64,000 bases of DNA from a virus. The notes under the pieces are model-generated. The model saw only the letters and a list, made by a program, of their open reading frames with translations. It ran no database searches and was not told the DNA's origin. The stretch lies in the UHGV virus genome UHGV-0370399; one strand, written 5' to 3'. How positions within the stretch are numbered: position 1 is the first letter of the stretch; every line of letters begins with the position of its first letter. Position numbers and translations under genes: made by a program. Positions 7,596-64,000 of the stretch are shown here, piece after piece.

Positions 7596-15611
<8,016 letters not shown>

Positions 15612-19314: not shown

Positions 19315-19512
19315 ATGCCTACAATCCTAGCAATTCTTCTAAAAAATCTAGGTAGCTTCTTCTGGAAACTCATTTTATCCCTTCTAAGTGAATACATGAT
19401 TGAGAAAGTGTTCTTTAGGCTTGCAAGATACCTTGCGAGTAAAACAGACACACCTATTGATGATGAGTTCGTAGATAACTTAGAAAAAGCTTTTAAGGGG
19501 GAGAATAAATGA
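19315..19512 (+). CDS. small hydrophobic protein (possible holin-like membrane protein)
   Basis: 65 aa with hydrophobic N-terminal segment; SD gaggtga. Confidence 0.3.
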   Translation: MPTILAILLKNLGSFFWKLILSLLSEYMIEKVFFRLARYLASKTDTPIDDEFVDNLEKAFKGENK

Positions 19513-19880
19513 AGTGGCTAGAGGAAGCTTTTAAAAATAATATTGGTGCAATTGTAGTTGGTATTTTTAGTGTTATTGGGATGTTTACCACGATGCAAGT
19601 TTCAAGTGGTAAACAAGAAGTGTCTGTCACAACAAAGTTACAGCAGCTAGATAATTATTCCAAAAGTAACTATTCAGCTATTCGTGATTTACAGTCTGAC
19701 ATGAGACTGATTCAGCTAGGGATGGAGAACCAGAAAGTTCAGTTAGAGAATGTTAAGGGTGAAAACGCAAAACTTACCAAAACTCTTGATAAATTCTCTG
19801 ACAGTGTGAATAATCTGGCTCAATCAGTATCAGCCCTCCAAGCTATTACTGAAAAGAACACAAAGAATACTGAAAAATAA
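19509..19880 (+). CDS. membrane-anchored coiled-coil protein
   Basis: N-terminal transmembrane segment GAIVVGIFSVIGMF then helical Q/K/E-rich domain; SD aggggg. Confidence 0.35.
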   Translation: MKWLEEAFKNNIGAIVVGIFSVIGMFTTMQVSSGKQEVSVTTKLQQLDNYSKSNYSAIRDLQSDMRLIQLGMENQKVQLENVKGENAKLTKTLDKFSDSVNNLAQSVSALQAITEKNTKNTEK

Positions 19881-45424: not shown

Positions 45425-45625
45425 ATGTTTAAGATATCAAAAGCGTTGATATACATACTCCATATTCTAGTCTTCTTCTTTGGGGTTAGCGTTATGGTAT
45501 GGGGCTTTTCAGACCCACAATGGGGTTTCTCATATCATGGTCAGATGGATTTATGGTCATGCTTCAAACCATTTTTAGGGTTAGCTATAGCATTCAGTGC
45601 ATTACCAACTAAGGTGAAATTATGA
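45425..45625 (+). CDS. small membrane protein
   Basis: 66 aa with hydrophobic segment ALIYILHILVFFFGVSVMVWGF. Confidence 0.3.
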   Translation: MFKISKALIYILHILVFFFGVSVMVWGFSDPQWGFSYHGQMDLWSCFKPFLGLAIAFSALPTKVKL

Positions 45626-49012: not shown

Positions 49013-51379
49013 ATGCGCATGGTAAACGACCACGCAGAAGTGATTAAGAGTTCAACTTCTTTAGAGACGTCTCAAGCACAGATTACAATGACACCTGAAA
49101 TGTTCAGCCTTTTGAGTTCCGGTGTATACACATTTAAAGAAAGGGCAGTGATTCGTGAACTGTCATGTAACGCAGTAGATGCTCAAAAAGAAGCTGGAAA
49201 AGAGAACATCCCGTTCCATGTGCATTTACCTACTCGATTTGAGCCTTACTTTGAAGTCCGTGACTTTGGAACTGGTTTAACCCATGACAAAGTAATGAGT
49301 TTGTATCTGAACTATGGGGCTTCTACGAAGAATGACTCTAATGACTACATTGGTGCAATGGGTATCGGCTCAAAGTCACCGTTTGCGATTGCTCAGTCAT
49401 TCACAGTGTCTAGCTATGTTGATGGTGTTGTTAATAAGTACTCTGTTTACCTTGAGAATGGTATTCCTCAAGTAACTAAGCTTACTACTAACCAAACAAA
49501 TGAACCTAATGGTTTAGCTGTACGTGTGGCAGTTGCTGACCACCGTATTTCAAAGTTCTTTGAAGAGGCTGGTAATGTATACTCATACTTTGCTGTAAAA
49601 CCAGAGAGTAATGTGGAGTATAATGATATATTAGCAGATATGGATGTGATTGCTCGTGAAGAAGGTGTCTATGATGCCATGACTCATAAGCATAGCTGGC
49701 GTTCAAGCAGCAATAGAACAGAGTTTAACGTGGTTATGGGTAATATTGCCTACCCAGTTAATATGGAGGTATTACTTGGTGATGATTTCTTCAAAGTATT
49801 ACCAGAATTTTTCCGCAGGAGCATAGACCTTGTAAACATCTACATGCCTATTGGTTCAGTTGCTTTTGCAGCTTCTCGTGAAGCATTGCAGATGAATGAC
49901 ACGACAAAAAATGTTATCATCGAGGCTACTAAAAAGATAACTGAAGCAATTACAAAGGATGTTATCAAGAAAGTTAATAGTCAACCTACACTCATGGATG
50001 CTGCACAGGCTTATGCTGAGTTACGCTTGAACTCACGAGAGATGTTTAATGTTGTGTGTCCAAAGCTAGAGTGGGGAGGTGTTAAGCTTGATTCTCTGGA
50101 AGAAGAATTACTAAACATTCGTTGTGGAATTATCTACGCAGAGGACGGCTCAGTCATCTATGAACGTGACGGCAAAGGTAATATTAAGGTTGACAGTAAA
50201 GGAAACAACATTCCTAAAGTGGACTACCTATACAATCCAGTTGCTTATGTTAAGTTCAACTCTTTAGAGAGTAAGATTCGTGCAACAGCACTTTCCTACA
50301 CTCAAGAGGCGAGCATGTTCAATATCTTTGGTGCAATGCGTAAAAGCCAAATTGAACAGTTTTTGTTCGTGATTAATGACCGTCGCAATAAAAACGGTAC
50401 TGAAAAGACTGTAGGCCGCAATCAGATTCTGCGTGATGCATGTCGAGACTACGCCAGTGAGTCAAGTCTGTTTCACAGATATAATGGTATTGTGTTTGTA
50501 TTCTCGACTGAAAAAGAGTTAGACGACCTAATCAATCTACACAAACTTGATAAAAGCTTGTTAAAGATTGTGAAGATGTCTGATAAGGAACATTACTATC
50601 AGCGTAAAGAAGCTGTAAGGGGTGTTGTAAAACTCTGGAAAGCTGTTCCAGCAGAAGGTGTAGCTTCCTATAAAGAGGTTTCAGAGGACTTCGATACAAT
50701 TGAAGAACCTCAGCTTTACATTAAGGCAGTTGGTGATACAGTTGATGGCGAATGTTTTTGCTCATCTCCAGAAGATGTAGCCAAGTCAGTTGCTAATGTT
50801 ACAGGGAAGACAGTCTATGTTTTCCGAAAAGCAAATTGGAAAAAGATACCAGAAGACTGGATTGAAGTAGATGAGAAGCTCTTGAACGACAGCTTAACTG
50901 ATGTTCACTGGATTAATCATAACAGGTATATGACACGTATCTATATGAATGGTGTTCTTGACCTTACAAGCAGTTGGATTATCGCCAGAAACTTTACATT
51001 CAATAACAGGAAGATTTCTCGTGGTTATTGCTATTCACGAGATACTAACAAAACTATCTTCCTAGAAGGCAATGAAGATGCTGTAGAGGCAATGTTCGGT
51101 AAAATCCAATACGTTGCTGCACCATTTGCATACACTTATACTGTTAGTGTATTGAAAACTTTGAAAGACTGTCTTGACAATGATACAAAGCTTTACAAGA
51201 AAATTAAGAAAGCTGGTGACCGCATGGTCATTAAGGTGACAAACTACCTTTCAAAAAGAAAACAAGAAAACTTCTTGCTTTCTCATTTAGATTGGAATAA
51301 AGTGTCACCTATCGAAGTGAGTAAGTTCTTAGGCTTTGATGTGAAGTGTGTTCCAGAAGGGACTACAATTTACGATTAA
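49013..51379 (+). CDS. rIIA: rIIA-like protein with GHKL-type ATPase N-terminus
   Basis: ELSCNAVDA (ExxxNxxD), RDFGTGL (DxGxG) and GAMGIGSKS (GxxGxG) are Bergerat-fold ATPase motifs; 788 aa followed by an rIIB-like gene. Confidence 0.65.
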   Translation: MRMVNDHAEVIKSSTSLETSQAQITMTPEMFSLLSSGVYTFKERAVIRELSCNAVDAQKEAGKENIPFHVHLPTRFEPYFEVRDFGTGLTHDKVMSLYLNYGASTKNDSNDYIGAMGIGSKSPFAIAQSFTVSSYVDGVVNKYSVYLENGIPQVTKLTTNQTNEPNGLAVRVAVADHRISKFFEEAGNVYSYFAVKPESNVEYNDILADMDVIAREEGVYDAMTHKHSWRSSSNRTEFNVVMGNIAYPVNMEVLLGDDFFKVLPEFFRRSIDLVNIYMPIGSVAFAASREALQMNDTTKNVIIEATKKITEAITKDVIKKVNSQPTLMDAAQAYAELRLNSREMFNVVCPKLEWGGVKLDSLEEELLNIRCGIIYAEDGSVIYERDGKGNIKVDSKGNNIPKVDYLYNPVAYVKFNSLESKIRATALSYTQEASMFNIFGAMRKSQIEQFLFVINDRRNKNGTEKTVGRNQILRDACRDYASESSLFHRYNGIVFVFSTEKELDDLINLHKLDKSLLKIVKMSDKEHYYQRKEAVRGVVKLWKAVPAEGVASYKEVSEDFDTIEEPQLYIKAVGDTVDGECFCSSPEDVAKSVANVTGKTVYVFRKANWKKIPEDWIEVDEKLLNDSLTDVHWINHNRYMTRIYMNGVLDLTSSWIIARNFTFNNRKISRGYCYSRDTNKTIFLEGNEDAVEAMFGKIQYVAAPFAYTYTVSVLKTLKDCLDNDTKLYKKIKKAGDRMVIKVTNYLSKRKQENFLLSHLDWNKVSPIEVSKFLGFDVKCVPEGTTIYD

Positions 51380-51384
51380 AGTGT

Positions 51385-51414
51385 TTGACAAGGGGCTTCA
51401 AAACCCCTTAGAAT
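51385..51414 (+). promoter_or_regulatory. sigma70-like promoter with hairpin in the spacer
   Basis: TTGACA, spacer aaGGGGcttcaaaaCCCCtt, TAGAAT. Confidence 0.5.
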
Positions 51415-51458
51415 AGCATCACAAAATGATTTATTAACTAACAAGAGAGAGTAATAAG

Positions 51459-52568
51459 ATGACTACCAAAACTAAAGCACAGATTGACGCAGAAATTTAC
51501 AAACTGGTTAAAGAAGGTAAGTTGACTAAAACAGCTATTGCACAGAAATTTAATACTTCAACCCGTTCAGTCGGTCGTGCTGTAGAGCGTCATGAAGCAA
51601 CCTTAAAAGGGAATAAGAAGGCAACTTCTACACCAGCTACGAAGACTTTGAAGCAAGTTGCTAAGACCTTTAAAAAGAAAGCTGACAAACCAGTTGAAAA
51701 GGTTGTTAAAGATGCTGTACAGAAAGCTCCGGTAAATAAACTGCATGAAGCTATGCAGAAAGATGACAAGATTGAGTACATGATTACTGGTGACTCTGTA
51801 ATTATGACTTATGGTTCAGAATCTGAAATTGTTGAGTCTACTCATCCGAACTATCAAGAGATTGTAGTTCATGTTGTGAAAGGTGAGTTCAAAAAAGCCT
51901 TTGAATTGATGAACATTCGTAAGTCTATCGAAAACTTCACTCAGGGCGCTATCACAATCAAAGGTGACAAGTTATTCTACGGTGCTGTTGAGATGCGTTC
52001 TACTCTGGTTGACCGTATTCTTCACATGATGAAGACTGGAGATAAAGGTTTCGAACGCCTTGTGATGTTCTTCGAAAAACTGATGGAAAACCCATCTAAA
52101 GACTCTGTAGAGCAACTTTGGGGCTTCGTATCTCACCTTGATGTTGAAATTGATGAAGAAGGCTACATCATTGGTTGGAAGAAAGTATCTACTCGTGAAG
52201 GCAAGCTGGTTGACTCCCACACCTACAGAGTACCTAATGATTTGGGTAACATTGTAGAAATGCCACGTTGGATGGTTGATAATAACCGTAACGTGACTTG
52301 CTCTCAAGGTCTTCATGTTGGTGCTTGGGATTATGTTCGTTGCTTCTCAGGTGATACAATTCTGAAGGTTCGTGTCCATCCACGAGACGTTGTATCCGTA
52401 CCAACTGATTACAACGATATGAAGATGCGCTCGTCTCGTTATGAAGTTGCAGCAATCGTTGATAATCAACGTAAAGTACTGAAAGCATGGGATGGCAAGA
52501 CTGAAGCTTTGCATGTCATCGTTGGCACTGCTGGGGAACTTATCTCTCAGCGTAAACGTGAAATCTAA
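51459..52568 (+). CDS. rIIB: rIIB-like protein
   Basis: 369 aa directly after the rIIA-like gene; N-terminal HTH-like segment laid out as in T4 rIIB. Confidence 0.6.
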   Translation: MTTKTKAQIDAEIYKLVKEGKLTKTAIAQKFNTSTRSVGRAVERHEATLKGNKKATSTPATKTLKQVAKTFKKKADKPVEKVVKDAVQKAPVNKLHEAMQKDDKIEYMITGDSVIMTYGSESEIVESTHPNYQEIVVHVVKGEFKKAFELMNIRKSIENFTQGAITIKGDKLFYGAVEMRSTLVDRILHMMKTGDKGFERLVMFFEKLMENPSKDSVEQLWGFVSHLDVEIDEEGYIIGWKKVSTREGKLVDSHTYRVPNDLGNIVEMPRWMVDNNRNVTCSQGLHVGAWDYVRCFSGDTILKVRVHPRDVVSVPTDYNDMKMRSSRYEVAAIVDNQRKVLKAWDGKTEALHVIVGTAGELISQRKREI

Positions 52569-52584
52569 TAAGTAATTTCTTAAA

Positions 52585-52607
52585 AGGCTGCTTCGGCGGC
52601 CTTTTTT
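52585..52607 (+). terminator. intrinsic terminator with UUCG tetraloop
   Basis: GGCTGC ttcg GCGGCC (one G-U) followed by TTTTTT. Confidence 0.75.
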
Positions 52608-52609
52608 AT

Positions 52610-52637
52610 TTGTATTTTGTGCAGAGTGCTGTATAAT
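52610..52637 (+). promoter_or_regulatory. sigma70-like promoter
   Basis: TTGTAT, 16 bp spacer, consensus TATAAT, 31 bp upstream of the ATG at 52669. Confidence 0.5.
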
Positions 52638-52668
52638 TGTTTTCACGATAAACTAAACAGGAGAACCA

Positions 52669-53217
52669 ATGAAGAAATTGATTCTAGGTTTGTGCTTAAT
52701 GTTTACAGCACACTTATCTTATGCAGTTGACTGCCCAGAGCTATCAATTAGCCAAAAAGTAAACATGTTAAAAGCTTACCAGTATGGTGAGAATAACATG
52801 GGTAAAGGTTGGGGTATCACTCTAGCTGCTATAGCCTTACAAGAGTCAGAGTTAGGTCTGAAGGTAGAGAATAAAAAGACCCATGACTATGGTATCTTCC
52901 AGAATCACTTGAAGACTGTTGTAAAGCGTAACAAAATTAGTCCTAATGTGGCTAAAAAGAAACTCTTAAAAGACTTTGACTATGCTGCGAAGGAAACTCA
53001 CAAAGAGCTTGAGTTTTGGACAAAGGTGCATGGTCAGCCAAAGTCAAAGAAGACTTTACAAAAAGTTTTAGCATCATATAATGCTGGGTATTCGTACAGA
53101 ATCCCTAAAGCTAAGAAATATTCTCAAGATGTCTATAACAACATGAAAGTTATTGCTCAATGTGAATTTGCAACAAACATTTCTAAGGTAAACCATGAAA
53201 AAATTAAAAAAGTCTGA
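52669..53217 (+). CDS. signal-peptide lytic transglycosylase (SLT domain), endolysin candidate
   Basis: N-terminal MKKLILGLCLMFTAHLSYA signal; catalytic-region motifs QESE, YGIFQ and AYNAGY match the SLT family. Confidence 0.55.
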   Translation: MKKLILGLCLMFTAHLSYAVDCPELSISQKVNMLKAYQYGENNMGKGWGITLAAIALQESELGLKVENKKTHDYGIFQNHLKTVVKRNKISPNVAKKKLLKDFDYAAKETHKELEFWTKVHGQPKSKKTLQKVLASYNAGYSYRIPKAKKYSQDVYNNMKVIAQCEFATNISKVNHEKIKKV

Positions 53218-53890
53218 TGAAGTACTGTGTCATGCTTACGACTTACATCCTCATGAGTTAGGTCTTGATTCCTGTGTATGGACTCCAGAACAGTGTAGGG
53301 ATTTTGAAGACACTGCAAGAGAAGTTGTATGTTCACTCGAAGAGTTCCACACATCAGAACCAATTGTGAATGTTGTAGATAAAGAGACTGGACAAACTAT
53401 AGGTGTAAGTCGTGATAGCTTAGTCATAGTCAATAAAGACCTTGTAGAAAAAGGGAATCTCATCTTAGCAGATATTGATGGTGTTCTTACAAATTTTAAT
53501 CACGAAGATTGTTCAACGGAATTGACTGACGGTTCATTCTCGCAGTACACTAATCTTCTTGACTCTGTAAGAGCAAAACCAACGTATGTTTTCAATATCA
53601 TTGATGCAATTGCTAATCATGCTGCTGTTGGACTCTTGACAGCGAGAGGTGAATCTCAGAGAATACCTACTGAGATGTTTTTAAGGCATAACACAGAGCA
53701 TGACTACATGCTTTTTATGCGTGGTTTTGGGACTAACTCTATAAGCGCAGAAAGTTTGAAAGTGAGGATGATTCAGTCTTGCATTCTGCCTTACTTTAAT
53801 ATAGTATGTTTTATAGAAGACACAGAGAAGAATGTGCAGAAGGTGAACAGAATCCTTCCACACATTAAAACCATGTTAGTTAAACATTGA
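53195..53890 (+). CDS. HAD-superfamily phosphatase-like protein (5'(3')-deoxyribonucleotidase-like)
   Basis: DIDGVLTNF matches HAD motif I as in NT5C-type nucleotidases; LLTARGE and FIEDTEKN fit motifs II and IV. Confidence 0.45.
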   Translation: MKKLKKSDEVLCHAYDLHPHELGLDSCVWTPEQCRDFEDTAREVVCSLEEFHTSEPIVNVVDKETGQTIGVSRDSLVIVNKDLVEKGNLILADIDGVLTNFNHEDCSTELTDGSFSQYTNLLDSVRAKPTYVFNIIDAIANHAAVGLLTARGESQRIPTEMFLRHNTEHDYMLFMRGFGTNSISAESLKVRMIQSCILPYFNIVCFIEDTEKNVQKVNRILPHIKTMLVKH

Positions 53891-53900
53891 GAGAAAACTT

Positions 53901-54365
53901 ATGAACAATATCATTACGGTAGCACTGGACGATACGGTAAACAAATCTGCAATAGTTCGTAAAATGATTCAAGGTAACTTTGAAGGTAAAATTTTTCGTG
54001 CTGTTAATGTAAAAGCTGATGGCAGCATTCGTGAATATCGTGCATTATTGAATGTTAAAAAACACGTAAAAGGTGCTGGTTCAACGACTGCACACAAAGA
54101 AAACCTGATGACTATCTATGATATGGGTAAGGCTTCAGAGTTAGGTGCTGAAGGTATCGTTAAAGAAGGTGCTCCGTATCGCTCTTTCAATCTGGAAACT
54201 ACTCTTATGCTTTCCTTTACAAGTGGTTCTAAAACAATCACTTATCTCTTTACTGATGCTGCAACGGTATCTGCTATTAAGGATAGCACTGTCAAAGCTG
54301 GCGTAGTTGCTGCTGCAAAAGCTTCTTCGATGGCTGCGAATATCCTTGCTAAAGTCCTCGGTTAA
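53901..54365 (+). CDS. hypothetical protein
   Basis: 154 aa; SD gagag; followed by a strong terminator. Confidence 0.4.
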   Translation: MNNIITVALDDTVNKSAIVRKMIQGNFEGKIFRAVNVKADGSIREYRALLNVKKHVKGAGSTTAHKENLMTIYDMGKASELGAEGIVKEGAPYRSFNLETTLMLSFTSGSKTITYLFTDAATVSAIKDSTVKAGVVAAAKASSMAANILAKVLG

Positions 54366-54376
54366 GGTTAAGATAC

Positions 54377-54398
54377 AGGCTCCTTCGGGAGCCTTTTT
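54377..54398 (+). terminator. intrinsic terminator with UUCG tetraloop
   Basis: AGGCTCC ttcg GGAGCCT followed by TTTT. Confidence 0.85.
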
Positions 54399-54417
54399 CA
54401 TTTTAGGAGATTGTTAA

Positions 54418-54765
54418 ATGACATTTAAAGAGTTCTGTCAAGCTACTTTCATAATTGTTTTCTTAGTTGGTGCAGGTGTCTGGGGAGGATACTCTTACAG
54501 AGACTATCAAGTTGCTGAAACTGAGCTAAATAATGAGAAACTAATAAGTGTTGCTAAAGATGCTTATCAGGAAGGTTTAGCCACACTCAGCACCAATTAC
54601 AAAAATGATTTGAAAGATGTGCTTGCTAAGAATAAGCATACAAAAGAGGTACTAACATATGAAAAAACTAAGCCAGAGTTTTATAATGTTTGTGTTACTG
54701 ATAACTATGTCAGGGTGTTCAACGAACAAAGTGAGCAGTACATTCAAAAACTCCCAAGTAAGTGA
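54418..54765 (+). CDS. putative i-spanin (Rz-like)
   Basis: N-terminal transmembrane helix FIIVFLVGAGVWGG then helical periplasmic domain; SD aggaga; the lipoprotein gene is overlapped in its 3' end. Confidence 0.45.
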   Translation: MTFKEFCQATFIIVFLVGAGVWGGYSYRDYQVAETELNNEKLISVAKDAYQEGLATLSTNYKNDLKDVLAKNKHTKEVLTYEKTKPEFYNVCVTDNYVRVFNEQSEQYIQKLPSK

Positions 54766-54928
54766 GAGTGATAAGTACACCCAAGAAGAATCACGGTATA
54801 TCATCAAAGGCAACACAGGCAGCGATGTAGCAGCAGCCCTTGAGTTCTATCGTGACGGCTTTTACCAGTGCACAATCAAAGCTAACAACCTTATTGACAT
54901 GATTTTATTAGGGAATAAGCAGCAATGA
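54659..54928 (+). CDS. putative o-spanin (Rz1-like lipoprotein) in overlapped architecture
   Basis: MKKLSQSFIMFVLLITMSGC has a signal peptide with lipobox-like MSGC; starts in the +1 frame inside 54418-54765. Confidence 0.45.
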   Translation: MKKLSQSFIMFVLLITMSGCSTNKVSSTFKNSQVSESDKYTQEESRYIIKGNTGSDVAAALEFYRDGFYQCTIKANNLIDMILLGNKQQ

Positions 54929-55194
54929 CAGAGAATCAAGATACTTTTTACGTAGAAGGGTACTTACTGTTACCACGACCAAAAGAGACTTATATGCGAA
55001 TTGATTTCTCACCAACCATTATGGATAATGTGATGTGCCATATCTTTATGCAAGGTGTCACAGCACAGCTTAAACATGTTGGTAAAGAGTGCAAAATAAA
55101 GGTTGACACTCATCCAGAAATCAAAGAGAATCACTACACATGGTTCTTACCAGATTCTAAAGAAATCTTAGCAGTTCTTAAAACGAGGAAGTAA
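54925..55194 (+). CDS. hypothetical protein
   Basis: 89 aa, ATGA-coupled. Confidence 0.35.
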   Translation: MTENQDTFYVEGYLLLPRPKETYMRIDFSPTIMDNVMCHIFMQGVTAQLKHVGKECKIKVDTHPEIKENHYTWFLPDSKEILAVLKTRK

Positions 55195-55196
55195 CT

Positions 55197-55518
55197 ATGC
55201 AGATTAATGGAAGAGACTTTGTAGCCGTTTACTATGAGAAAGGTAAAGAAGTTGGCGTAGCATAAGTATCTTATGGCAATGGTAAGTGGCTATATGGAAC
55301 AATCGCAGTAGTAGGAACAAGAAGTGATACAAAAACCTTTAAAGATTGTGTTGACCTTCTTGAAGAATCCATCCAGAATCATTGGTGTCTGATATGGATG
55401 ACTGACAACGAAGTGATAGAACGTTTCAAAAAGGTTGATATCAACATTGACAGTATTGAGCATGTTGATTTATATGAACTAACCGAAAAGGTAAGCTATG
55501 AAAGCTCTAGAGGTAATT
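55197..55518 (+). pseudogene. ORF interrupted by an in-frame TAA at codon 23 (possible nonsense pseudogene or readthrough gene)
   Basis: ATG at 55197 with SD gaggaag; TAA at 55263-55265; the same frame then stays open for 84 codons to TGA at about 55516 with no ATG/GTG/TTG until 55398. Confidence 0.3.
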
Positions 55519-55725
55519 GATAAAGACACTGGAGAAGTTACATCAGCATGTGTTTTCGTTAGTAACGACACAGTGATACCATTTTACAATCTCGATAGTT
55601 TTAGTTTTACAGGGATAACTCCAGAAGAATACTTTGAAGACCTTACCTTTGCCAGAATTTCTATAGATACATTCTATAAATGCTTCTATGATGAAGGTAA
55701 AGAATTACGAGAAACTGAACTATAA
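55498..55725 (+). CDS. hypothetical acidic protein
   Basis: 75 aa, ATG-initiated. Confidence 0.35.
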   Translation: MKALEVIDKDTGEVTSACVFVSNDTVIPFYNLDSFSFTGITPEEYFEDLTFARISIDTFYKCFYDEGKELRETEL

Positions 55726-55737
55726 GGTGTATATGAT

Positions 55738-55938
55738 ATGGCTGACTTCTGCAAAGACTGTTCTATCGAAATGTTCGGACGTGATACAGGTGACTTAAAA
55801 GGTCTTATCACTGAAGATGACTTTAAAGCTGGTTATGCAATGCCAGTAATCTGTGAAGGTTGTGGATGTATCTGGGTAGACCACGAAGGGCAACGTGTAA
55901 AGCCTTCAGAAGATAAAGAATCTTGGGAGAGATGTTAA
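55738..55938 (+). CDS. small zinc-ribbon protein
   Basis: CKDCS ... CEGCGC Cys pairs; SD aaggtg. Confidence 0.4.
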   Translation: MADFCKDCSIEMFGRDTGDLKGLITEDDFKAGYAMPVICEGCGCIWVDHEGQRVKPSEDKESWERC

Positions 55939-56724
55939 ATGGGTATTGTAAAAATCATCAATGGCGATATCTTTGCTGCATTTGATAAAGGTAAGTTTGA
56001 CATCATTGGTCATGGTTGTAACTGCATGAACCTAATGGGTGCAGGTATCGCTGACAAGATTTCTAAACTTTACCCAAAAGCATATGAGACCGATACAGAA
56101 GTTTATCTCTATGCAGGTGGTATAGGTCATAAACCCTGTGAGAATTTACTAGGTAATTTCTCTGTAGCACGCTTAAAACAAGGTCGTATAGCTAACCTTT
56201 ACACTCAGCTTAAGACTGGTAAAGATGCCCGATACAGTGCTTTAGAGTCATCTTTGAAGCAACTTAACAGATACTGTGAAGTTAATCAGTTGAAGAAAGT
56301 TGGTTTACCTATGATTGGTGCAGGTATCGGTGGACTTGACCCTCAAGCCGTCACAGTTATCATCAATCAGGTGATGAAGAGTGTAGATGTTTATCTATAT
56401 GTCTATGAAGGAGAGATGTACCACAAGTTACTCTCAGGTTGGAAGAACTACTGTGAACCAGAATACTTTGCAGGTGTAGCAGTGTTCACAGATAACGCAG
56501 TTACCCTCTTCAGACGAAGAAAAGGTAAGATACATCAAAGTAACCCTCCGGTTGAAAAGATGTCTCTGAGTAACGCTCTAGTTACCCACCTGTCGAAGAG
56601 CAATCACAGGATTGCAGTAACATTTGGCAGTGATGCAGATACTTATATCTATGCAAGAACTGATGAGGATATCGAGACAGTTTTCTCTTCACCAGAAGTT
56701 ACCTTCTTAGACGCAAAGAACTAA
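55939..56724 (+). CDS. macro-domain (ADP-ribose binding/processing) protein
   Basis: GDIF...DIIGHGCNCMNLMGAGIA and VGLPMIGAGIGGL parallel the macro-domain VNAAN..L.GGGV and glycine-rich loops. Confidence 0.6.
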   Translation: MGIVKIINGDIFAAFDKGKFDIIGHGCNCMNLMGAGIADKISKLYPKAYETDTEVYLYAGGIGHKPCENLLGNFSVARLKQGRIANLYTQLKTGKDARYSALESSLKQLNRYCEVNQLKKVGLPMIGAGIGGLDPQAVTVIINQVMKSVDVYLYVYEGEMYHKLLSGWKNYCEPEYFAGVAVFTDNAVTLFRRRKGKIHQSNPPVEKMSLSNALVTHLSKSNHRIAVTFGSDADTYIYARTDEDIETVFSSPEVTFLDAKN

Positions 56725-56791
56725 GAAACTCTGTAGGATATTCACAATAGCCTAAGCCTTTCTTATCTGGTAAATTTTTCAGGTAAGGAGG

Positions 56792-56975
56792 GCTTTTTCA
56801 TTTCAGAATTGTGCAGGTAGAGTTCTGTAGAGAAATCTGTAGAGAGAATTTTGAACTCCAAAGAGAAAATTCATTTTCAAACTGTGCAGATAATCTCCAA
56901 AGAGCTTTTTCATTTTCAAAACGTGCAGACCACACTCAGGTCGGGCAAGAAAAATCATTTTAGGATTGTGCAGGT
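56792..56975. repeat. four iteron-like copies of a 20 nt motif
   Basis: tcattt(t)cA(g/a)AAtTGTGCAG at about 56799, 56871, 56911 and 56956; tandem tctgtagaga x2 at 56821-56848. Confidence 0.7.
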
Positions 56976-57000
56976 AGGTTTTTATAGAGAGCCAGACCAA

Positions 57001-57031
57001 ACCCTCTCCCCCTCTTACTCCCCCTCTCCCC
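57001..57031. repeat. polypyrimidine C/T mirror-repeat tract
   Basis: accctctccccctcttactccccctctcccc, pure pyrimidine on the + strand. Confidence 0.7.
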
Positions 57032-57153
57032 AAAAGTCAAGAGAAAAATTTGTAGCGGATTGAAAAATAATTCTTGATTTGTGTTCTGTTTTGTGGTAGT
57101 CGTGTGCGCCCGTTTCATTACAGTTTTGCCAAAAATATTTTTAAAATTTTTTC

Positions 57154-57245
57154 TTGACTCTTTGAACGTGGTTATCTAGTATTTGCATCAACGGGGAGGG
57201 AATGACCTTCCCCACTAAATAAAGTCCTAAACTGGAGATTCAAAA
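57154..57245 (+). promoter_or_regulatory. cassette module A1: promoter, 5' stem-loop and RBS
   Basis: TTGACT-17-TAGTAT, then caacGGGGAGGGaatgaCCTTCCCCactaaataaagtcctaaactGGAGattcaaaaATG. Confidence 0.65.
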
Positions 57246-57629
57246 ATGGCATATCGTGCACCTAAATTCATCAACAAAGACAACTTTCGCAACGCACTGG
57301 AGAAGTCACTTGATGAGAATTTTAAAGGGAATAAAATTGTTGTTCACGCATTCAATTTTAAGTATGATATCAACGGGAATAAAATCAACCACTACACGGC
57401 AACTATGATAGATGGTACGCTTTCAAGCGAAAAAACTATTCTCAATGCACTTGCTGGACGTGGGAAAAACCTGATAAGATGCGATAAGAGACGTTATCAG
57501 GGCGGCGCATATGGTTATGATGATGCTGTCTATCATCTTGAAAATATGGGCTATTCAGTAGAAAAAGTTGGAGCGTCGCAAATCATCGGTAGTGATGGTT
57601 ATGTAACAATCCTCAAAATTAACAAATAA
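57246..57629 (+). CDS. cassette gene 1, hypothetical protein
   Basis: 127 aa; preceded by module A1; last codons (LKINK) lie inside the next module. Confidence 0.5.
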   Translation: MAYRAPKFINKDNFRNALEKSLDENFKGNKIVVHAFNFKYDINGNKINHYTATMIDGTLSSEKTILNALAGRGKNLIRCDKRRYQGGAYGYDDAVYHLENMGYSVEKVGASQIIGSDGYVTILKINK

Positions 57630-57715
57630 AGTACTTTACAAGGGGCTTATAGTTCGATAAAGTAAGCCCCAGATAAAGAGCTTTACCACTAAATCCTAAA
57701 TTGGAGAACTTAAAA
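57630..57715 (+). promoter_or_regulatory. cassette module B1: hairpin overlapping promoter, plus RBS
   Basis: aagtacTTTACA then GGGGCTTA-13 nt-TAAGCCCC hairpin (57642-57670) containing TAAAGT, then agataaagagctttaccactaaatcctaaattGGAGaacttaaaaATG. Confidence 0.6.
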
Positions 57716-58009
57716 ATGGCTATTATCAAAAACGTTGTAATTACCGCAAAGACTCGTGATGACGCTCGTATCATGGCTAAAAAGTTATGCGGGAAAGTGG
57801 TTGACAACGGAAAACAATCTGCTGTAAGGTGGGGCGTGAAGGTTGATAAACAGTTGAAGTTAAAAAATTCACCGATAAACCTTTTTACATGTGTAAACAC
57901 TATCGGGAAGACAAATGTATACACGAAAAAGGCATATATTAGACGCGTAGCATTAACATCCCCCATTCGCACAATGAGAAGTTATGCAAAGCTGAAAATT
58001 AACAAATAA
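57716..58009 (+). CDS. cassette gene 2, hypothetical basic protein
   Basis: ORF-track start is the TTG inside the module; ATG at 57716 follows the conserved GGAG; ends KLKINK. Confidence 0.5.
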   Translation: MAIIKNVVITAKTRDDARIMAKKLCGKVVDNGKQSAVRWGVKVDKQLKLKNSPINLFTCVNTIGKTNVYTKKAYIRRVALTSPIRTMRSYAKLKINK

Positions 58010-58094
58010 AGTACTTTACATGGGGTTTAAAAGTTGATATCTTAAGCCCCAGATAAAGAGCTTTACCACTCAATCCTAAACTGGAGATTCAAAA
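58010..58094 (+). promoter_or_regulatory. cassette module B2
   Basis: TTTACA, hairpin GGGGTTTAA ... TTAAGCCCC (58022-58050), conserved RBS segment. Confidence 0.6.
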
Positions 58095-58607
58095 ATGAAA
58101 ACTGTAGACGCTACCTTTGAAGTTGTAAAAGAAAAATTCACCATTATCTATGAAGCTGTTAATTGCTTTGAAGCAAGTCATAATCTTGACAATTGGAAGT
58201 TTACAGATGACCATCAAGGCGGTGTAACTGTTAAAAATCCTAACTGCCAGCATAATGAATTTAAATATGCAATCCCTTTACATTACAGCCTTAAACAGCT
58301 TTCTAGTGACTATGCAAAACAAGGCCGGGAAAATCCATCAAAAGAGGCTTACGCAAGCTTACAGAAAGAACTAGAAAGAGATTTAGAGGCGTCAGAGTAT
58401 AACCTTGCCGCGAAAGTTGTGGATGCAAACGGTAGCACGGTTTTAGAAAGTTTTTATCTTGGTTATGCTTTCGATTGGTGCTATCGTGACGGCGATGATT
58501 TAGAAGATAGACTAAAAGAAGAGGTGAACAACGCAGACGCAGAATCTGAAGTATTAGAACGTTTGGAATCGTTGAAAGACTCAGTGATGAATATCTTTAA
58601 GAACTAA
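58095..58607 (+). CDS. cassette gene 3, hypothetical acidic protein
   Basis: 170 aa after module B2. Confidence 0.5.
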   Translation: MKTVDATFEVVKEKFTIIYEAVNCFEASHNLDNWKFTDDHQGGVTVKNPNCQHNEFKYAIPLHYSLKQLSSDYAKQGRENPSKEAYASLQKELERDLEASEYNLAAKVVDANGSTVLESFYLGYAFDWCYRDGDDLEDRLKEEVNNADAESEVLERLESLKDSVMNIFKN

Positions 58608-61835: not shown

Positions 61836-62177
61836 ATGGCTTATGTAACCGTAATTACCGATAAAGCTGGCGCATCTTGGTCAACTCAGGTCAGTGATAA
61901 GATGTCACCTATGCAGTGCCTAAAATACTTTGAACAGTGGAATAAAGGCGAGGACACAAGCCCCTTTCAAGTGATGCAGATTATCCATGTAGACAATGAA
62001 GGGAATAAAACGACACTGAATAGTGAGTACTATGCAAGCCGTTTTGAAACGAGAAGTAAAACAATGAAACTTTTACGTGAATCCGGTTATGCCCATATCG
62101 CCGCGTTAATCTGGGATGACCTGCTAAAAAGTCAGCGTATCAGCTATGTAAAGCCTGAAAAAATATTCATCAGTTAA
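61836..62177 (+). CDS. cassette gene 12, hypothetical protein
   Basis: 113 aa after module A4. Confidence 0.45.
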   Translation: MAYVTVITDKAGASWSTQVSDKMSPMQCLKYFEQWNKGEDTSPFQVMQIIHVDNEGNKTTLNSEYYASRFETRSKTMKLLRESGYAHIAALIWDDLLKSQRISYVKPEKIFIS

Positions 62178-62209
62178 TCAATAACTTATAAAAAACTTTT
62201 AAAAAAGTG

Positions 62210-62238
62210 TTGACAATACCCATTGACATTGGTAACTT
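62210..62238 (+). promoter_or_regulatory. orphan sigma70-like promoter
   Basis: TTGACA-17-TAACTT with a second TTGACA inside the spacer; no ORF before the next module. Confidence 0.45.
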
Positions 62239-62307
62239 TGTTCGAGGGGGTTTATCTAAAAGGGATTCACTTAAAAGATTTCTTTATAGATAAGCTTAAA
62301 AAATTGC

Positions 62308-62429
62308 TTGCAATCAGATATCAAAACAAGTAAATTACTAATCAATGGGGAGGGAATGAACTTCCCCACTAAACAAAGCCCTTAAACTAGGAGATTCTAA
62401 AATTCAACTACATCCGTTCAATTCATGTC
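62308..62429 (+). promoter_or_regulatory. cassette module A5 (degenerate; start codon displaced)
   Basis: TTGCAA-17-TAAATT with stem-loop variant GGGGAGGGaatgaaCTTCCCC; the usual ATG position reads aaaattc and the gene ATG is 30 nt further. Confidence 0.5.
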
Positions 62430-62915
62430 ATGTCAAAGCCTGTTAAAGATACCTATGAATTCCGTTGTAATGGGGTACACTTTGCAACCATCACTAAGTC
62501 AGAAAACGGGGCTTATTATGTACATCGTCGTAATGTTGCAACCGTTGTAGTCTCTCACTTTATGCAAGCTGTAGCGGAATTATTACCGTTATTCTTAGAG
62601 ATTTACTTAGATGAGTGTAAAAACGTTCACAACCACGTTAAAAACCTTTTAAACGGTTATAAAATGGCTTATGAACGTTCTATTAAGTCACTGAATAAGT
62701 TTTACAATGCACCTGCAAATACTGTTTCAATGGCTTATGATGTAAACGGTGAGTTAGTTAGCCTCTTCGAAGTGGAAGGAATTAAGCTGTATAATTTACG
62801 TCCTAGCGGTTACTCTAAGACTCTTGGTGAAGGTTTATCCTTTAATATCAAGAACTTAGAAAAAACTTTAAAAGACATTGAAAAAGATATTGACGAGACA
62901 CTTAAAAGTCTGTAA
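62430..62915 (+). CDS. cassette gene 13, hypothetical protein
   Basis: 161 aa; ATG far from the module SD; stop TAA lies inside the next -10 hexamer. Confidence 0.4.
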   Translation: MSKPVKDTYEFRCNGVHFATITKSENGAYYVHRRNVATVVVSHFMQAVAELLPLFLEIYLDECKNVHNHVKNLLNGYKMAYERSIKSLNKFYNAPANTVSMAYDVNGELVSLFEVEGIKLYNLRPSGYSKTLGEGLSFNIKNLEKTLKDIEKDIDETLKSL

Positions 62916-62981
62916 ATTGTCAATCAACGGGGAGGGAATGACCTTCCCCACTAAGTAAAGTCCTAAACTGGAGTTATCAAG
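62890..62981 (+). promoter_or_regulatory. cassette module A6
   Basis: TTGACG-17-TAAATT then the conserved stem-loop leader. Confidence 0.6.
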
Positions 62982-63245
62982 ATGGAAAACGTAGAATTAA
63001 CCACACTTTTACAAATTGCAACCGACAAAGAAAACGTAGCTTTATTTCACCGCATCGAAAGTGATTTGTTCAATGGTGAAATCATCAAAGAGTCTTACGA
63101 GGTTGTTGGATTCAAAGATGGTAAAACATTTGGATTCTTTGACCTCGAAAAAGGCAACGCTGTTACAAAATATGATGTTTTATCTTGTGAGATTCTTACA
63201 AAATACAATGAAAAAAGGCTTGCAACATACGCCAATATGCAGTAA
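62982..63245 (+). CDS. cassette gene 14, hypothetical protein
   Basis: 87 aa; stop TAA coincides with the -10 TAAATT of the next module. Confidence 0.45.
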   Translation: MENVELTTLLQIATDKENVALFHRIESDLFNGEIIKESYEVVGFKDGKTFGFFDLEKGNAVTKYDVLSCEILTKYNEKRLATYANMQ

Positions 63246-63311
63246 ATTACTAATCAACGGGAGGCGATAACCTCCCCACTAAATAAAACCCTTAAACTAG
63301 GAGATTCAAAA
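63220..63311 (+). promoter_or_regulatory. cassette module A7 (stem-loop with compensatory changes)
   Basis: TTGCAA-17-TAAATT; leader hairpin GGGAGG cgataa CCTCCC replaces GGGGAGGG aatga CCTTCCCC while keeping base-pairing. Confidence 0.6.
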
Positions 63312-63725: not shown

Positions 63726-63943
63726 CCCCAGAAAGGGGATGGCCCATTTAAACGCTCTATAAAGCTCTATAACAGCCTTATCAACCTAACTTAAGGGATT
63801 GCATTAACCTATCTTAAAAAGCTCTTTACAGGGCTTTATAGAGGCTTAAAAGAATCTTATAAGGGTGTAAGCTTATAGGCTGGTTAGTATCTTGTGAATG
63901 GTTAAACAACCCCCTTGCTAGTCACTAAAAAGCATGTTATAGG

Positions 63944-64000
63944 GGCTATAAAGTTACTTCAAAGTTACGTAAAAAAGGCTATAAAGTTACTTCAAAGTTA
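63944..64000. repeat. tandem 33 bp repeat truncated by the window edge
   Basis: ggctataaagttacttcaaagtta at 63944 and 63977 separated by cgtaaaaaa; CTATAAAG-like motifs also at 63764-63784 and 63834-63845. Confidence 0.7.

What the first reader, a model, noticed from the sequence alone, without database searches (positions are those of the whole stretch)
52669..54928. Dispersed lysis functions: signal-peptide lytic transglycosylase and an overlapped spanin-like pair
Seen in sequence: 52669-53217 encodes a protein with an N-terminal signal sequence and SLT-family motifs (QESE, YGIFQ, AYNAGY). About 1.2 kb downstream, 54418-54765 encodes an N-terminally anchored helical protein whose 3' end overlaps a lipoprotein gene (54659-54928, MSGC lipobox) in the +1 frame, which is the classic Rz/Rz1 overlapped architecture. 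Small membrane proteins that could be holins are located elsewhere (19315-19880, 42871-43077, 45425-45625). Inference: the lysis genes are not in a single cassette; the transglycosylase may be exported by the Sec system.
Basis: partly seen in the sequence, partly recalled or inferred. Interest (0 to 1): 0.4.

Follow-up and report, generated by a model that had tools for sequence, protein, structure and literature searches.

The report
Felix O1-type spanins plus exported Vs.1 transglycosylase
This stretch of a Felix O1-like phage genome carries a real, already catalogued pair of overlapping "spanin" lysis genes, plus a secreted cell-wall-cutting enzyme of the T4 Vs.1 family that is probably not the phage's main lysis enzyme; all of this is already in public annotations.

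Summary
The window is a Felixounavirus (Felix O1-like myovirus), 96-98% identical in DNA to public genomes. All three ORFs exist at the stated coordinates. 54418-54765 and 54659-54928 form a genuine overlapped two-component spanin. The i-spanin has an N-terminal membrane anchor. The o-spanin has a lipobox, an outer-membrane sorting residue, a conserved periplasmic Cys, and strong purifying selection in its own frame. Both have homologs inside a canonical lysis cassette in phage Solent. Kongari et al. 2018 already list the Felix O1 pair as "overlapped", and a 2015 genome announcement already says Felix O1-type lysis genes are scattered. It is the homolog of T4 Vs.1, found in over 2,000 phage records whose genomes (T4, Felix O1 relatives and one metagenomic contig were checked) also carry a canonical endolysin. 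In this genus that endolysin is a 154-aa GH24 lysozyme (Felix O1 gp35), which lies outside the window. The SLT protein is therefore best read as an accessory periplasmic wall-remodelling enzyme of untested role. Verdict: observation confirmed, interpretation partly right, nothing new. Low interest.

The parts
52669..53217 (+). Vs.1-family exported GH23 (SLT / goose-lysozyme fold) protein, 182 aa; equals Felix O1 ORF3
52669..52725 (+). Predicted Sec signal peptide (aa 1-19, MKKLILGLCLMFTAHLSYA); predicted signal peptidase I cut after SYA
   Evidence: Hydropathy and the -3/-1 rule read from the sequence. A similar N-terminus occurs in 148 of 163 full-length family representatives. No SignalP was available, so this is a heuristic.
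52843..52845 (+). Codon GAG for Glu59, the predicted catalytic acid (E-S motif)
   Evidence: Invariant in 169/169 aligned family members; Ser/Thr follows in all 169. It aligns with the catalytic Glu region of EtgA and goose lysozyme.
54418..54765 (+). i-spanin (inner-membrane spanin subunit), 115 aa, TMD about aa 9-27, conserved periplasmic Cys92; equals Felix O1 ORF6
   Evidence: phrog_1152 'Rz-like spanin' E=8e-42. Hydropathy. Homolog of the Solent i-spanin in a canonical lysis cassette, E=9e-9. Annotated as i-spanin in public records. Listed in Kongari 2018.
54659..54928 (+). o-spanin (outer-membrane lipoprotein spanin subunit), 89 aa, +1 frame, overlaps the i-spanin gene by 107 nt; equals Felix O1 ORF7
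   Evidence: Lipobox and Cys20, Ser at +2, invariant Cys71. Purifying selection in its own frame. Homolog of the Solent o-spanin, E=2e-12. RBS AAGAGG lies upstream.
54707..54718 (+). Lipobox M-S-G-C of the o-spanin (Cys20 codon at 54716)
   Evidence: The Cys is invariant in five divergent homologs.
19509..19880 (+). Putative holin (123 aa, one N-terminal TMD and a long helical tail); equals Felix O1 gp79 and Moogle 'putative holin'. Untested.
   Evidence: ORF. 98% identical to GEC_vB_B1 gp094 'holin'. Annotated holin or putative holin in Moogle, Michonne, Sf13/14 and SUSP2. No holin family match in Pfam or PHROGs.
52582..52605 (+). Terminator-like hairpin between rIIB and the Vs.1-like gene
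   Evidence: sequence.
54377..54394 (+). Terminator-like hairpin ending 23 nt before the i-spanin start codon
   Evidence: sequence.

Best explanation
The window comes from a Felix O1-like virulent myovirus whose lysis genes are scattered, as is already known for this group.

(1) 54418-54765 and 54659-54928 encode a two-component spanin of the overlapped class. The i-spanin is anchored in the inner membrane by its N-terminal TMD. The o-spanin is lipidated at Cys20 and sorted to the outer membrane. Their periplasmic domains bind each other across the periplasm. Once the endolysin has removed the peptidoglycan, the complex fuses the inner and outer membranes, which is the last step of lysis. The topology, lipobox, conserved Cys residues, selection and homology are shown here. 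The membrane-fusion step is inferred from the lambda and T4 paradigms.

(2) 52669-53217 encodes a member of the T4 Vs.1 family. It is a small single-domain GH23 enzyme that is exported by Sec and cleaved after SYA19. It is probably stabilised by a Cys22-Cys165 disulfide in the periplasm, and uses Glu59 to cut the MurNAc-GlcNAc bond of peptidoglycan. It does not depend on a holin and is not the phage's main endolysin, which is a cytoplasmic GH24 lysozyme encoded outside the window. Its most likely role is accessory. It would pre-weaken or remodel the sacculus of the infected cell before holin triggering, much as small signal-peptide 'specialised' lytic transglycosylases such as EtgA open the wall locally. 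The fold, active-site conservation and export signal are shown in silico. Enzyme activity, the chemistry (lytic transglycosylase versus hydrolase) and the biological role are inferred.
For: Identity of the phage: 96-98% nucleotide identity to Felixounavirus genomes.

Spanins:
- PHROG 'Rz-like spanin' 8e-42 for the i-spanin, with weaker spanin and unnamed-family hits for the o-spanin.
- TMD, lipobox, Ser at +2, and one conserved periplasmic Cys in each subunit.
- The overlapped pair is kept in Moogle, SUSP2, Sf13 and phiEa21-4, in the unrelated siphovirus Solent, and in the unclassified 68-kb phage Bas92.
- In Solent both homologs (E 9e-9 and 2e-12) sit directly after holin-endolysin-holin.
- pN/pS is 0.11-0.15 in the o-spanin frame against 1.4-3.1 in the control frames, and synonymous change collapses in the overlap.
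- Kongari 2018 lists Felix01, phiEa21-4 and FSL_SP-010 as overlapped spanins.

Vs.1-like enzyme:
- phrog_600 1e-57.
- Homologs in 2128 phage records, including Tequatrovirus vs.1 next to regB/vs.
- E59, Y137, G140 and Y151 are invariant in 169/169 members. S60 and N138 are near-invariant, and position 78 is Q in 94 and H in 66 members.
- AF2 pLDDT 84.7.
- Best PDB sequence hit is the T3SS lytic transglycosylase EtgA.
- Signal-peptide-like N-terminus in 148/163 members, and the two Cys co-occur (72 both, 75 neither, 8+8 single; Fisher p=1.8e-27), as expected for a periplasmic disulfide.

Not the main endolysin:
- A GH24 Phage_lysozyme endolysin (E=4.7e-41) is present in 263 related records and absent from the window.
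- It is named as the lysin gp35 in the Felix O1 paper.
- A Vs.1-like gene also coexists with PF00959 on an unrelated metagenomic phage contig.
- In Felix O1 RT-PCR, ORF3, ORF6 and lysin ORF35 all peak at 25 min.
Against: - No experiment on any Vs.1-family protein was found in the searchable literature, so the activity and role are inference.
- The Pfam SLT score is below the gathering cut-off for this protein (19.2 vs 21.3 bits).
- The signal peptide was judged by a heuristic, not by SignalP.
- That this particular genome has the GH24 endolysin is inferred from close relatives, because the relevant part of the genome is outside the window.
- The spanins have not been tested by complementation for this family. 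The o-spanin has no proline at all, unlike lambda Rz1.
- A strong terminator-like hairpin sits 23 nt upstream of the i-spanin start, so how the pair is transcribed is unclear.
Confidence: 0.78

Rival explanations
1. The SLT-like protein is the phage's working endolysin. It would be a secreted (signal-peptide or SAR-type) endolysin that accumulates in the periplasm and is unleashed when a holin or pinholin collapses the membrane potential.
For: It has an N-terminal export signal, a GH23 fold and an invariant catalytic Glu. Several public records call it 'lysin' or 'putative lysin'. In Felix O1 its transcript peaks at 25 min, the same class as lysin gp35. Secreted endolysins are an established class (my knowledge: fOg44 Lys44, P1 Lyz, phage 21 R).
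Against: - Every complete relative examined carries a separate canonical GH24 endolysin, whose Felixounavirus form has been shown to be muralytic in vitro.
- The family is present in T4-type phages, whose endolysin is gpe and whose e mutants do not lyse despite vs.1 (T4 genetics from my knowledge).
- The gene always sits among early or middle genes (rII, pseT, nrd, regB), never next to a holin.
- The hydrophobic core has only 13 residues and is followed by an S-Y-A cleavage site. This fits a cleaved signal peptide, not a releasable SAR anchor.
Confidence: 0.08
2. The SLT-like protein is a periplasmic peptidoglycan-binding or regulatory protein rather than an active enzyme. For example, it could block host lytic transglycosylases, protect against lysis-from-without or superinfection, or signal in lysis inhibition.
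For: It sits right after rIIA/rIIB here, and in an Acinetobacter T4-like phage it sits in a run of periplasmic-signal proteins ending in rI. T4 is known to export small periplasmic proteins for such roles (Spackle, RI; my knowledge). No activity has ever been shown for the family.
Against: All catalytic-site residues of family-1 lytic transglycosylases (E-S, G-x-x-Q/H, S-Y-N-x-G, Tyr) are kept. E59, Y137, G140 and Y151 are invariant across 169 diverse members. That pattern is hard to explain for a non-enzyme. The neighbours are not consistent between phage groups.
Confidence: 0.1
3. The 115-aa and 89-aa pair is not a spanin but some other membrane-protein and lipoprotein pair, for example a superinfection-exclusion lipoprotein like T5 Llp or the phi80/N15 Cor protein with a membrane partner.
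For: The pair lies in an early/middle gene block far from the endolysin and the putative holin. The o-spanin lacks the proline-rich character of lambda Rz1. There is no detectable homology to the T4 spanins. No functional test exists for this family.
Against: Both proteins are homologous to the i- and o-spanin that close a canonical holin-endolysin-holin cassette in phage Solent. The overlapped arrangement, the TMD, the lipobox with an outer-membrane sorting residue and one conserved periplasmic Cys per subunit all fit the spanin definition. T4 shows that spanin genes can lie far from the holin and endolysin genes.
Confidence: 0.04

Closest known systems
Felix O1 ORF6/ORF7 (Felix01 family of overlapped two-component spanins, Kongari et al. 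2018)
   Same: Essentially the same genes. They have the same lengths (115 and 89 aa) and the same 107-nt overlap. Identity to Felixounavirus records is at least 96.5% for the i-spanin and at least 91% for the o-spanin.
   Different: Nothing of substance. Many public records mis-call the o-spanin start (65-73 aa versions that lack the lipobox).
Lambda Rz/Rz1 (paradigm two-component spanin)
   Same: A type II inner-membrane subunit and an outer-membrane lipoprotein subunit are encoded in different frames of shared DNA, with periplasmic Cys residues. The presumed role is the same: disruption of the outer membrane.
   Different: Lambda's Rz1 is fully embedded in Rz, whereas here the o-spanin gene runs 163 nt past the i-spanin stop (overlapped class). 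The mature o-spanin here is 70 aa with no proline, whereas Rz1 is about 40 aa and proline-rich (my knowledge). The genes are not in a lysis cassette. No lambda homology was detected or claimed.
T4 PseT.3/PseT.2 spanins
   Same: The spanin genes lie far from the holin and endolysin genes and within about 0.5 kb of the polynucleotide kinase gene pseT in both phages. The o-spanin is larger than lambda Rz1.
   Different: The T4 genes are separated rather than overlapped. There is no sequence or profile similarity beyond the signal and TMD regions. The order relative to pseT differs.
T4 Vs.1 (conserved ORF between regB and vs; phrog_600)
   Same: Homologous over about 85% of the length at about 32% identity. 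Both have a signal peptide and the same E-S, G-x-x-Q, S-Y-N-x-G and Tyr motifs, are about 180 aa, and sit among early or middle genes.
   Different: T4-type members lack the Cys22/Cys165 pair. The neighbours differ: regB/vs in T4, rIIB/pseT here.
Specialised small lytic transglycosylases of secretion systems (EtgA of the EPEC T3SS; GH23 family 1)
   Same: EtgA is the best PDB sequence match (8urn, E=7e-4). It is a single GH23 domain of similar size with a Sec signal peptide and the same catalytic motifs.
   Different: No partner machine or activator (such as EscI for EtgA) is known here. Sequence identity is only about 17-19%. This is an analogy of design, not membership.
Felix O1 gp35 / LysO1-type GH24 endolysin
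   Same: Both are peptidoglycan glycosidases encoded by the same phage group.
   Different: gp35 is a soluble PF00959 lysozyme without a signal peptide, encoded on the other strand about 15 kb away and outside this window. It is the accepted endolysin.

Membership tests
GH23 / family-1 lytic transglycosylase (Pfam SLT, PF01464) | Catalytic Glu followed by Ser (E-S motif) | tested here: met
   E59-S60. E is invariant in 169/169 and S/T follows in 169/169 aligned family members.
GH23 / family-1 lytic transglycosylase (Pfam SLT, PF01464) | Downstream motifs G-L-M-Q-like, A/S-Y-N-x-G and a conserved Tyr | tested here: met
   G75-I-F-Q78, S136-Y-N-A-G140 and Y151. Y137, G140 and Y151 are invariant. 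Q78 is Q or H in 160 of 169 members.
GH23 / family-1 lytic transglycosylase (Pfam SLT, PF01464) | Score above Pfam's curated gathering threshold | tested here: not met
   19.2 bits against a cut-off of 21.3, E=9e-4. The T4-type homolog from RB7 does pass, with 25.1 bits.
GH23 / family-1 lytic transglycosylase (Pfam SLT, PF01464) | Goose-lysozyme-like alpha-helical fold | tested here: met
GH23 / family-1 lytic transglycosylase (Pfam SLT, PF01464) | Non-hydrolytic cleavage giving 1,6-anhydroMurNAc (as opposed to lysozyme-type hydrolysis) | not testable with these tools
   This needs muropeptide analysis. Position 73 (Asp here) varies across the family (S 94, D 57, A 14), so the sequence cannot decide.
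T4 Vs.1 family (phrog_600) | Significant full-length sequence homology to Vs.1 proteins | tested here: met
   phrog_600 E=1e-57 over aa 1-170. tblastn to Tequatrovirus vs.1 gives about 32% identity over 85% of the length, E 1e-9 to 1e-11. Felix O1 ORF3 is annotated 'Vs.1 CHP'.
Phage endolysin (functional class) | It is the muralytic enzyme on which lysis depends; typically the only non-virion one, and often next to a holin | tested here: not met
   Relatives carry a separate GH24 endolysin. There is no holin next to the gene. Genetic dependence itself cannot be tested here.
SAR endolysin | Uncleaved, weakly hydrophobic, Gly/Ala/Ser-rich N-terminal TMD of about 18-20 residues that can leave the membrane | tested here: not met
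   The hydrophobic core LILGLCLMFTAHL has 13 residues and is followed by S-Y-A|V, a standard signal peptidase I site. This is a heuristic reading only.
Bacterial lipoprotein (for the SLT-like protein) | Lipobox [LVI][ASTVI][GAS]C | tested here: not met
   In L-G-L-C9 the residue at -1 is Leu, the leader would be only 8 residues long, and the Cys is absent from T4-type homologs.
Two-component spanin: i-spanin | Single N-terminal TMD with the bulk of the protein periplasmic | tested here: met
   The only hydrophobic segment is aa 9-27 (KD15 2.14). The remaining 88 residues are polar. Orientation was not predicted by a dedicated tool.
Two-component spanin: i-spanin | Homology to an i-spanin located in a lysis cassette | tested here: met
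   phrog_1152 'Rz-like spanin' 8e-42. BLASTP E=9e-9 to the Solent i-spanin, which lies after holin-endolysin-holin.
Two-component spanin: o-spanin | Signal peptidase II lipobox with Cys, and no Asp at +2 (outer-membrane sorting) | tested here: met
   I-T-M-S-G-C20-S21. The Cys is invariant and +2 is Ser or Thr in five divergent homologs.
Two-component spanin: o-spanin | Gene embedded in, overlapping, or directly following the i-spanin gene | tested here: met
   It starts 241 nt into the i-spanin gene in the +1 frame with a 107-nt overlap. The same arrangement is found in Moogle, phiEa21-4, Solent and Bas92.
Two-component spanin: o-spanin | The overlapping frame really is protein-coding | tested here: met
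   pN/pS is 0.11-0.15 in its own frame against 1.4-3.1 in the other frames for the non-overlapped part. pS falls from about 0.6-1.1 to 0.1-0.3 in the overlap.
Two-component spanin (both subunits) | At least one periplasmic Cys for intermolecular disulfide links (Kongari 2018) | tested here: met
   i-spanin Cys92 and o-spanin Cys71 are both invariant in the 5-sequence alignments.
Two-component spanin (both subunits) | Functional: complements an Rz/Rz1 defect; needed for outer-membrane disruption | not testable with these tools
   This needs a lambda Rz-am/Rz1-am complementation assay.
T4 PseT.3/PseT.2 spanin families | Sequence or profile homology | tested here: not met
   BLASTP E=18 and 0.04 (signal region only). 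hhalign probability 1% and 11%.
Holin (for 19509-19880) | Small membrane protein with a match to a holin family, or adjacency to an endolysin, or lethal hole formation | tested here: inconclusive
   It has one TMD and a charged helical tail. There is no holin family hit in Pfam, PHROGs or NCBIfam. It is called 'putative holin' only by annotation in related records.

The most novel reading that the evidence does not exclude
The Vs.1 family, of which 52669-53217 is a member, could be a distinct and so far unstudied class of phage wall enzyme. It is Sec-exported and holin-independent, has an invariant active site, and is carried alongside a canonical endolysin by thousands of large virulent phages of Gram-negative bacteria (T4-like, Felix O1-like, Kuttervirus, KVP40-like, and some jumbo phages). 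Its job would be something other than terminal lysis, for example remodelling the sacculus to allow cell enlargement or to tune lysis timing, or clearing peptidoglycan locally for an envelope-spanning phage complex.
Probability: 0.3. Interest if true: 0.5.

Novelty: already known. Interest (0 to 1): 0.13.

Why it matters
As a finding it matters little. The spanin pair, the scattered layout of the lysis genes and the Vs.1 homology of the SLT-like gene are all in print or in GenBank annotations for Felix O1 and its relatives.

Two practical points come out of the check:
- Many public Felixounavirus records label the Vs.1-like gene 'lysin' and mis-call the o-spanin start so that the lipobox is lost. 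Anyone mining these phages for endolysins or lysis modules should be aware of this.
- The Vs.1 family is very widespread (over 2,000 phage records and 1,265 cluster representatives). Its active site is invariant and its Cys pair co-varies, yet no functional study was found. It is a reasonable, cheap target for a knockout and enzymology study in T4 or Felix O1.

Tried and rejected
- Shared ancestry of this spanin pair with the T4 spanins, suggested by both lying next to pseT: no homology was found by BLASTP or hhalign, so the linkage is treated as coincidence or unresolved.
- A lipoprotein reading of the SLT-like protein (L-G-L-C9): rejected, because the -1 residue is wrong, the leader is too short and the Cys is not conserved.
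- A SAR-endolysin reading: rejected on the length of the hydrophobic core and the S-Y-A cleavage site.
- Bacterial (non-phage) homologs that might hint at a cellular role: the one hit labelled 'Campylobacter coli' lies on a 215-kb contig with a chimallin gene, so it is a jumbo phage. Another lies on a 67-kb phage contig that also has a PF00959 lysozyme.
- NCBIfam gave no meaningful family for any of the proteins.
- Literature searches for any functional work on Vs.1 returned only the 2006 comparative-genomics remark that vs.1 marginally matches SLT.
- A tandem-repeat search of 56600-58500, prompted by repetitive-looking ORF translations, found nothing.
- The sigma-70 promoter scan gave many weak matches and none convincing in front of the SLT-like gene or the i-spanin gene. 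I draw no conclusion on promoters.


Full report
**What the window is.** A 4-kb stretch around the finding is 96-98% identical in DNA to many Felixounavirus genomes (LF110P4, FSL SP-107, radambza, VSe11 and others). 278 phage records match it. The first 2 kb of the window align at position 34111 of Salmonella phage GEC_vB_B1. The last 2 kb match only patchily (about 87-91% identity), and their first part aligns near position 12600-12900. The window therefore covers about 64 kb of an 86-88-kb Felix O1-like genome and lacks about 22-24 kb.

**Observation.**
- 52669-53217, 182 aa
- 54418-54765, 115 aa
- 54659-54928, 89 aa; +1 frame relative to the 115-aa ORF, 107-nt overlap

The motifs QESE (aa 58-61) and YGIFQ (aa 74-78) are present. 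The third motif reads SYNAGY rather than AYNAGY. The flanking genes are rIIA (49013-51379), rIIB (51459-52568), a PseT-type polynucleotide kinase (53195-53890), a conserved 154-aa unknown (53901-54365) and, further on, a macro-domain protein homologous to T4 Tk.4 (55939-56724). Terminator-like hairpins on the + strand lie at 52582-52605, 54377-54394 and 56754-56795.

**The spanin pair: anatomy.** The 115-aa protein matches PHROG 1152 'Rz-like spanin' at E=8e-42. Its only hydrophobic segment is aa 9-27. The 89-aa protein has a signal sequence ending in the lipobox M-S-G-C20. Ser follows at +2, so there is no inner-membrane retention signal. Each subunit has one periplasmic Cys: Cys92 in the i-spanin and Cys71 in the o-spanin.

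**The spanin pair: conservation.** I aligned each subunit with homologs from Moogle, phiEa21-4, the siphovirus Solent and the unclassified 68-kb phage Bas92. The lipobox Cys and both periplasmic Cys residues are invariant. This fits the rule of Kongari et al. that two-component spanins need periplasmic Cys. In Solent the homologous pair closes a textbook cassette of holin, endolysin, holin, i-spanin, o-spanin. The pairwise E-values are 9e-9 for the i-spanin and 2e-12 for the o-spanin.

**The spanin pair: selection.** I compared the window with Moogle, SUSP2 and Sf13 (77-82% nucleotide identity). The part of the o-spanin gene lying beyond the i-spanin stop has pN/pS of 0.11-0.15 in its own frame. 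The other two frames give 1.4-3.1. Synonymous divergence drops from about 0.6-1.1 to 0.1-0.3 inside the overlap, as expected for dual coding. tblastn finds the ORF intact in 343 records.

**The spanin pair is not new.**
- Public records annotate the two genes as i-spanin and o-spanin.
- Kongari et al. 2018 list Felix01/FO1a/UAB_phi87, phiEa21-4 and FSL_SP-010 in the overlapped class.
- The 2010 Felix O1 paper already noted that holin-lysin cassettes are absent.

**The SLT-like protein: homology.** Pfam SLT is hit at E=9e-4, just under the gathering score. PHROG 600, of unknown function, is hit at 1e-57. tblastn finds homologs in 2128 phage records. In Tequatrovirus the homolog is the ORF vs.1, between regB and vs. 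phiEa21-4, ST-3 and the Acinetobacter phage Kimel annotate their copies as Vs.1. Supplementary Table 1 of the Felix O1 paper lists ORF3 (3582-4130, 182 aa) as 'Vs.1 CHP'. A 2006 comparison of T4-like genomes already remarked that vs.1 matches SLT marginally and might act in lysis.

**The SLT-like protein: active site and fold.** A profile search of 1.84 billion cluster representatives finds 1265 members at E<=1e-3, mostly single-domain proteins of 160-195 aa. I aligned 169 of them. Glu59, Tyr137, Gly140 and Tyr151 are invariant. Ser or Thr at position 60 is universal, and Gly63, Gly75 and Asn138 are near-invariant. Position 78 is Gln in 94 and His in 66 members. The AlphaFold model (pLDDT 84.7) matches GH23 enzymes:
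- All Foldseek top hits in the PDB are GH23, though their E-values are weak.
- The top viral models are phage 'SLT domain' proteins.
- The best PDB hit by sequence profile is EtgA, the small signal-peptide lytic transglycosylase of the EPEC type III secretion system.

**The SLT-like protein: export.** The N-terminus MKKLILGLCLMFTAHLSYA|VD has the layout of a cleaved Sec signal. By a simple heuristic, 148 of 163 full-length family members have the same kind of N-terminus. The family also carries a Cys just after the signal peptide (Cys22 here) and a Cys near the C-terminus (Cys165 here). These are present together in 72 members, absent together in 75, and single in only 16 (Fisher p=1.8e-27). 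This is the pattern expected for a structural disulfide, which fits a periplasmic protein. I could not run SignalP or measure the Cys-Cys distance in the model.

**The SLT-like protein is not the endolysin.**
- GEC_vB_B1 annotates a 154-aa endolysin on the other strand about 15 kb further on. It hits Pfam Phage_lysozyme at 4.7e-41.
- That protein is found in 263 phage records, essentially the same set of genomes.
- It has no match in the window.
- It is the protein the Felix O1 paper names as the lysin, gp35.
- The abstract of one study reports experimental validation, by turbidimetric assay, of a 'cd00737 endolysin_autolysin' lysin. The Felix O1-like origin of that lysin is inferred from the search that retrieved the paper.
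- T4-type phages carry vs.1 in addition to their endolysin gene e. From established T4 genetics (my knowledge), e mutants do not lyse.
- An unrelated 67-kb metagenomic phage contig also carries both a Vs.1-like gene and a PF00959 lysozyme.
- The one 'bacterial' homolog, labelled Campylobacter coli, sits on a 215-kb contig with a chimallin gene, so it belongs to a jumbo phage.
- The Vs.1-like gene is always found among early or middle genes, with varying neighbours: rIIB/pseT, regB/vs, nrd genes, gene 46, and Gad2.
- In Felix O1 RT-PCR, ORF3 (Vs.1-like), ORF6 (i-spanin) and ORF35 (lysin) all peak at 25 min. ORF7 was not tested.

**Most likely mechanism.** A holin permeabilises the inner membrane. 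The best candidate in the window is 19509-19880, which is untested. The cytoplasmic GH24 endolysin, encoded outside the window, then degrades the peptidoglycan. Finally the spanin complex of 54418-54765 and 54659-54928 fuses the two membranes. Separately, and earlier, the Vs.1-like protein is exported by Sec and processed. It then acts as a GH23 muramidase or lytic transglycosylase on the sacculus of the infected cell. I rate the biochemical reading (an exported, active GH23 enzyme) as likely. The specific role (pre-weakening or remodelling rather than terminal lysis) is the best guess only, because no experimental work on this family was found.

**Holin candidates.** 19509-19880 (123 aa, one TMD) is 98% identical to GEC gp094 'holin'. 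Moogle, Michonne, Sf13/14 and SUSP2 annotate it as a putative holin. It corresponds to Felix O1 gp79, one of the five candidates named in 2010. It has no holin family match. 42871-43077 and 45425-45625 match only PHROGs labelled unknown or 'membrane protein'.

**Rejected leads.**
- The spanins lie next to pseT here and in T4, but there is no homology to PseT.3/PseT.2.
- The L-G-L-C9 string in the SLT-like protein is not a lipobox.
- The signal is not SAR-like.

**Verdict.** It is wrong to cast the SLT-like protein as the lysis enzyme. Everything is already in the literature or in annotations, so novelty is 'already known' and interest is low. The only open question touched is the untested function of the very widespread Vs.1 family.

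Noticed in passing
window 54659-54928, compared with L002 4209-4430, L004 5644-5841 and L017 2814-3011: Many public Felixounavirus and Mooglevirus records call the o-spanin from a later start (65-73 aa instead of 89 aa), which removes the signal peptide and lipobox. SUSP2 does not annotate it at all. A 2021 paper reports that one phage has 'only the i-spanin', which is probably the same annotation artefact.
   Followed up: partly
window 54377-54417: A strong terminator-like hairpin (AGGCTCC-TTCG-GGAGCCT plus a T-run) ends only 23 nt before the i-spanin ATG. That leaves no room for a promoter of its own, so the spanin genes must be expressed by read-through or from a promoter upstream of the terminator. 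The Felix O1 paper raises the same general puzzle about its many terminators.
   Followed up: partly
window 49013-56724: This block is a string of homologs of scattered T4 early or middle genes: rIIA, rIIB, Vs.1, PseT and a Tk.4-like macro-domain protein (55939-56724; Pfam Macro 1e-7, phrog_335). In T4, vs.1 and tk.4 are also near neighbours.
   Followed up: partly
window 52732-52734 and 53161-53163 (Cys22 and Cys165 of the 182-aa protein): Across 163 family representatives these two Cys residues are either both present (72) or both absent (75), Fisher p=1.8e-27. This suggests a disulfide that ties the N- and C-termini together in part of the Vs.1 family. T4-type members lack both.
   Followed up: yes
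window 53901-54365: A conserved 154-aa protein of unknown function (phrog_2267, E=5.6e-49) lies between pseT and the spanins. It has an Ala-rich amphipathic C-terminal tail (AGVVAAAKASSMAANILAKVLG) and only a very weak WYL_2/SH3-like Pfam hint. It is conserved at the same position in phiEa21-4, Moogle and SUSP2.
   Followed up: no
window 19315-19512: A 65-aa membrane ORF (phrog_402, unknown function) ends 4 nt into the start of the putative holin gene. The two may form a holin/antiholin-type pair, but nothing supports this beyond position.
   Followed up: no
window 62001-64000: The last 2 kb of the window match GEC_vB_B1 only patchily (87-91% over short pieces, with rearranged order), whereas the rest is about 96-97% identical. 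This looks like a variable region of small early ORFs.
   Followed up: no
L018 (GCA_053226485.1 contig ACBEZJ010000004.1), gene at 8001-8582: A Vs.1-family protein named 'transglycosylase SLT domain-containing protein [Campylobacter coli]' lies on a 215-kb contig next to a PhiKZ-type chimallin gene. A jumbo phage genome is apparently filed inside a bacterial assembly.
   Followed up: partly
hits H104 (GU169904.1) and H126 (OK283618.1): Records named 'Staphylococcus phage SA1' and 'Listeria phage LPML1' carry the i-spanin at 100% and 38% identity respectively. Records named for Campylobacter also appear among the Felix O1-like hits. For SA1, and perhaps the others, the host label looks wrong or the record looks contaminated.
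   Followed up: no
L004 18921-19319 (GEC_vB_B1 gp042c; outside the window): The gene annotated 'D-alanyl-D-alanine carboxypeptidase' near the real endolysin has no Pfam match at E<=0.01, so that label is doubtful.
   Followed up: partly
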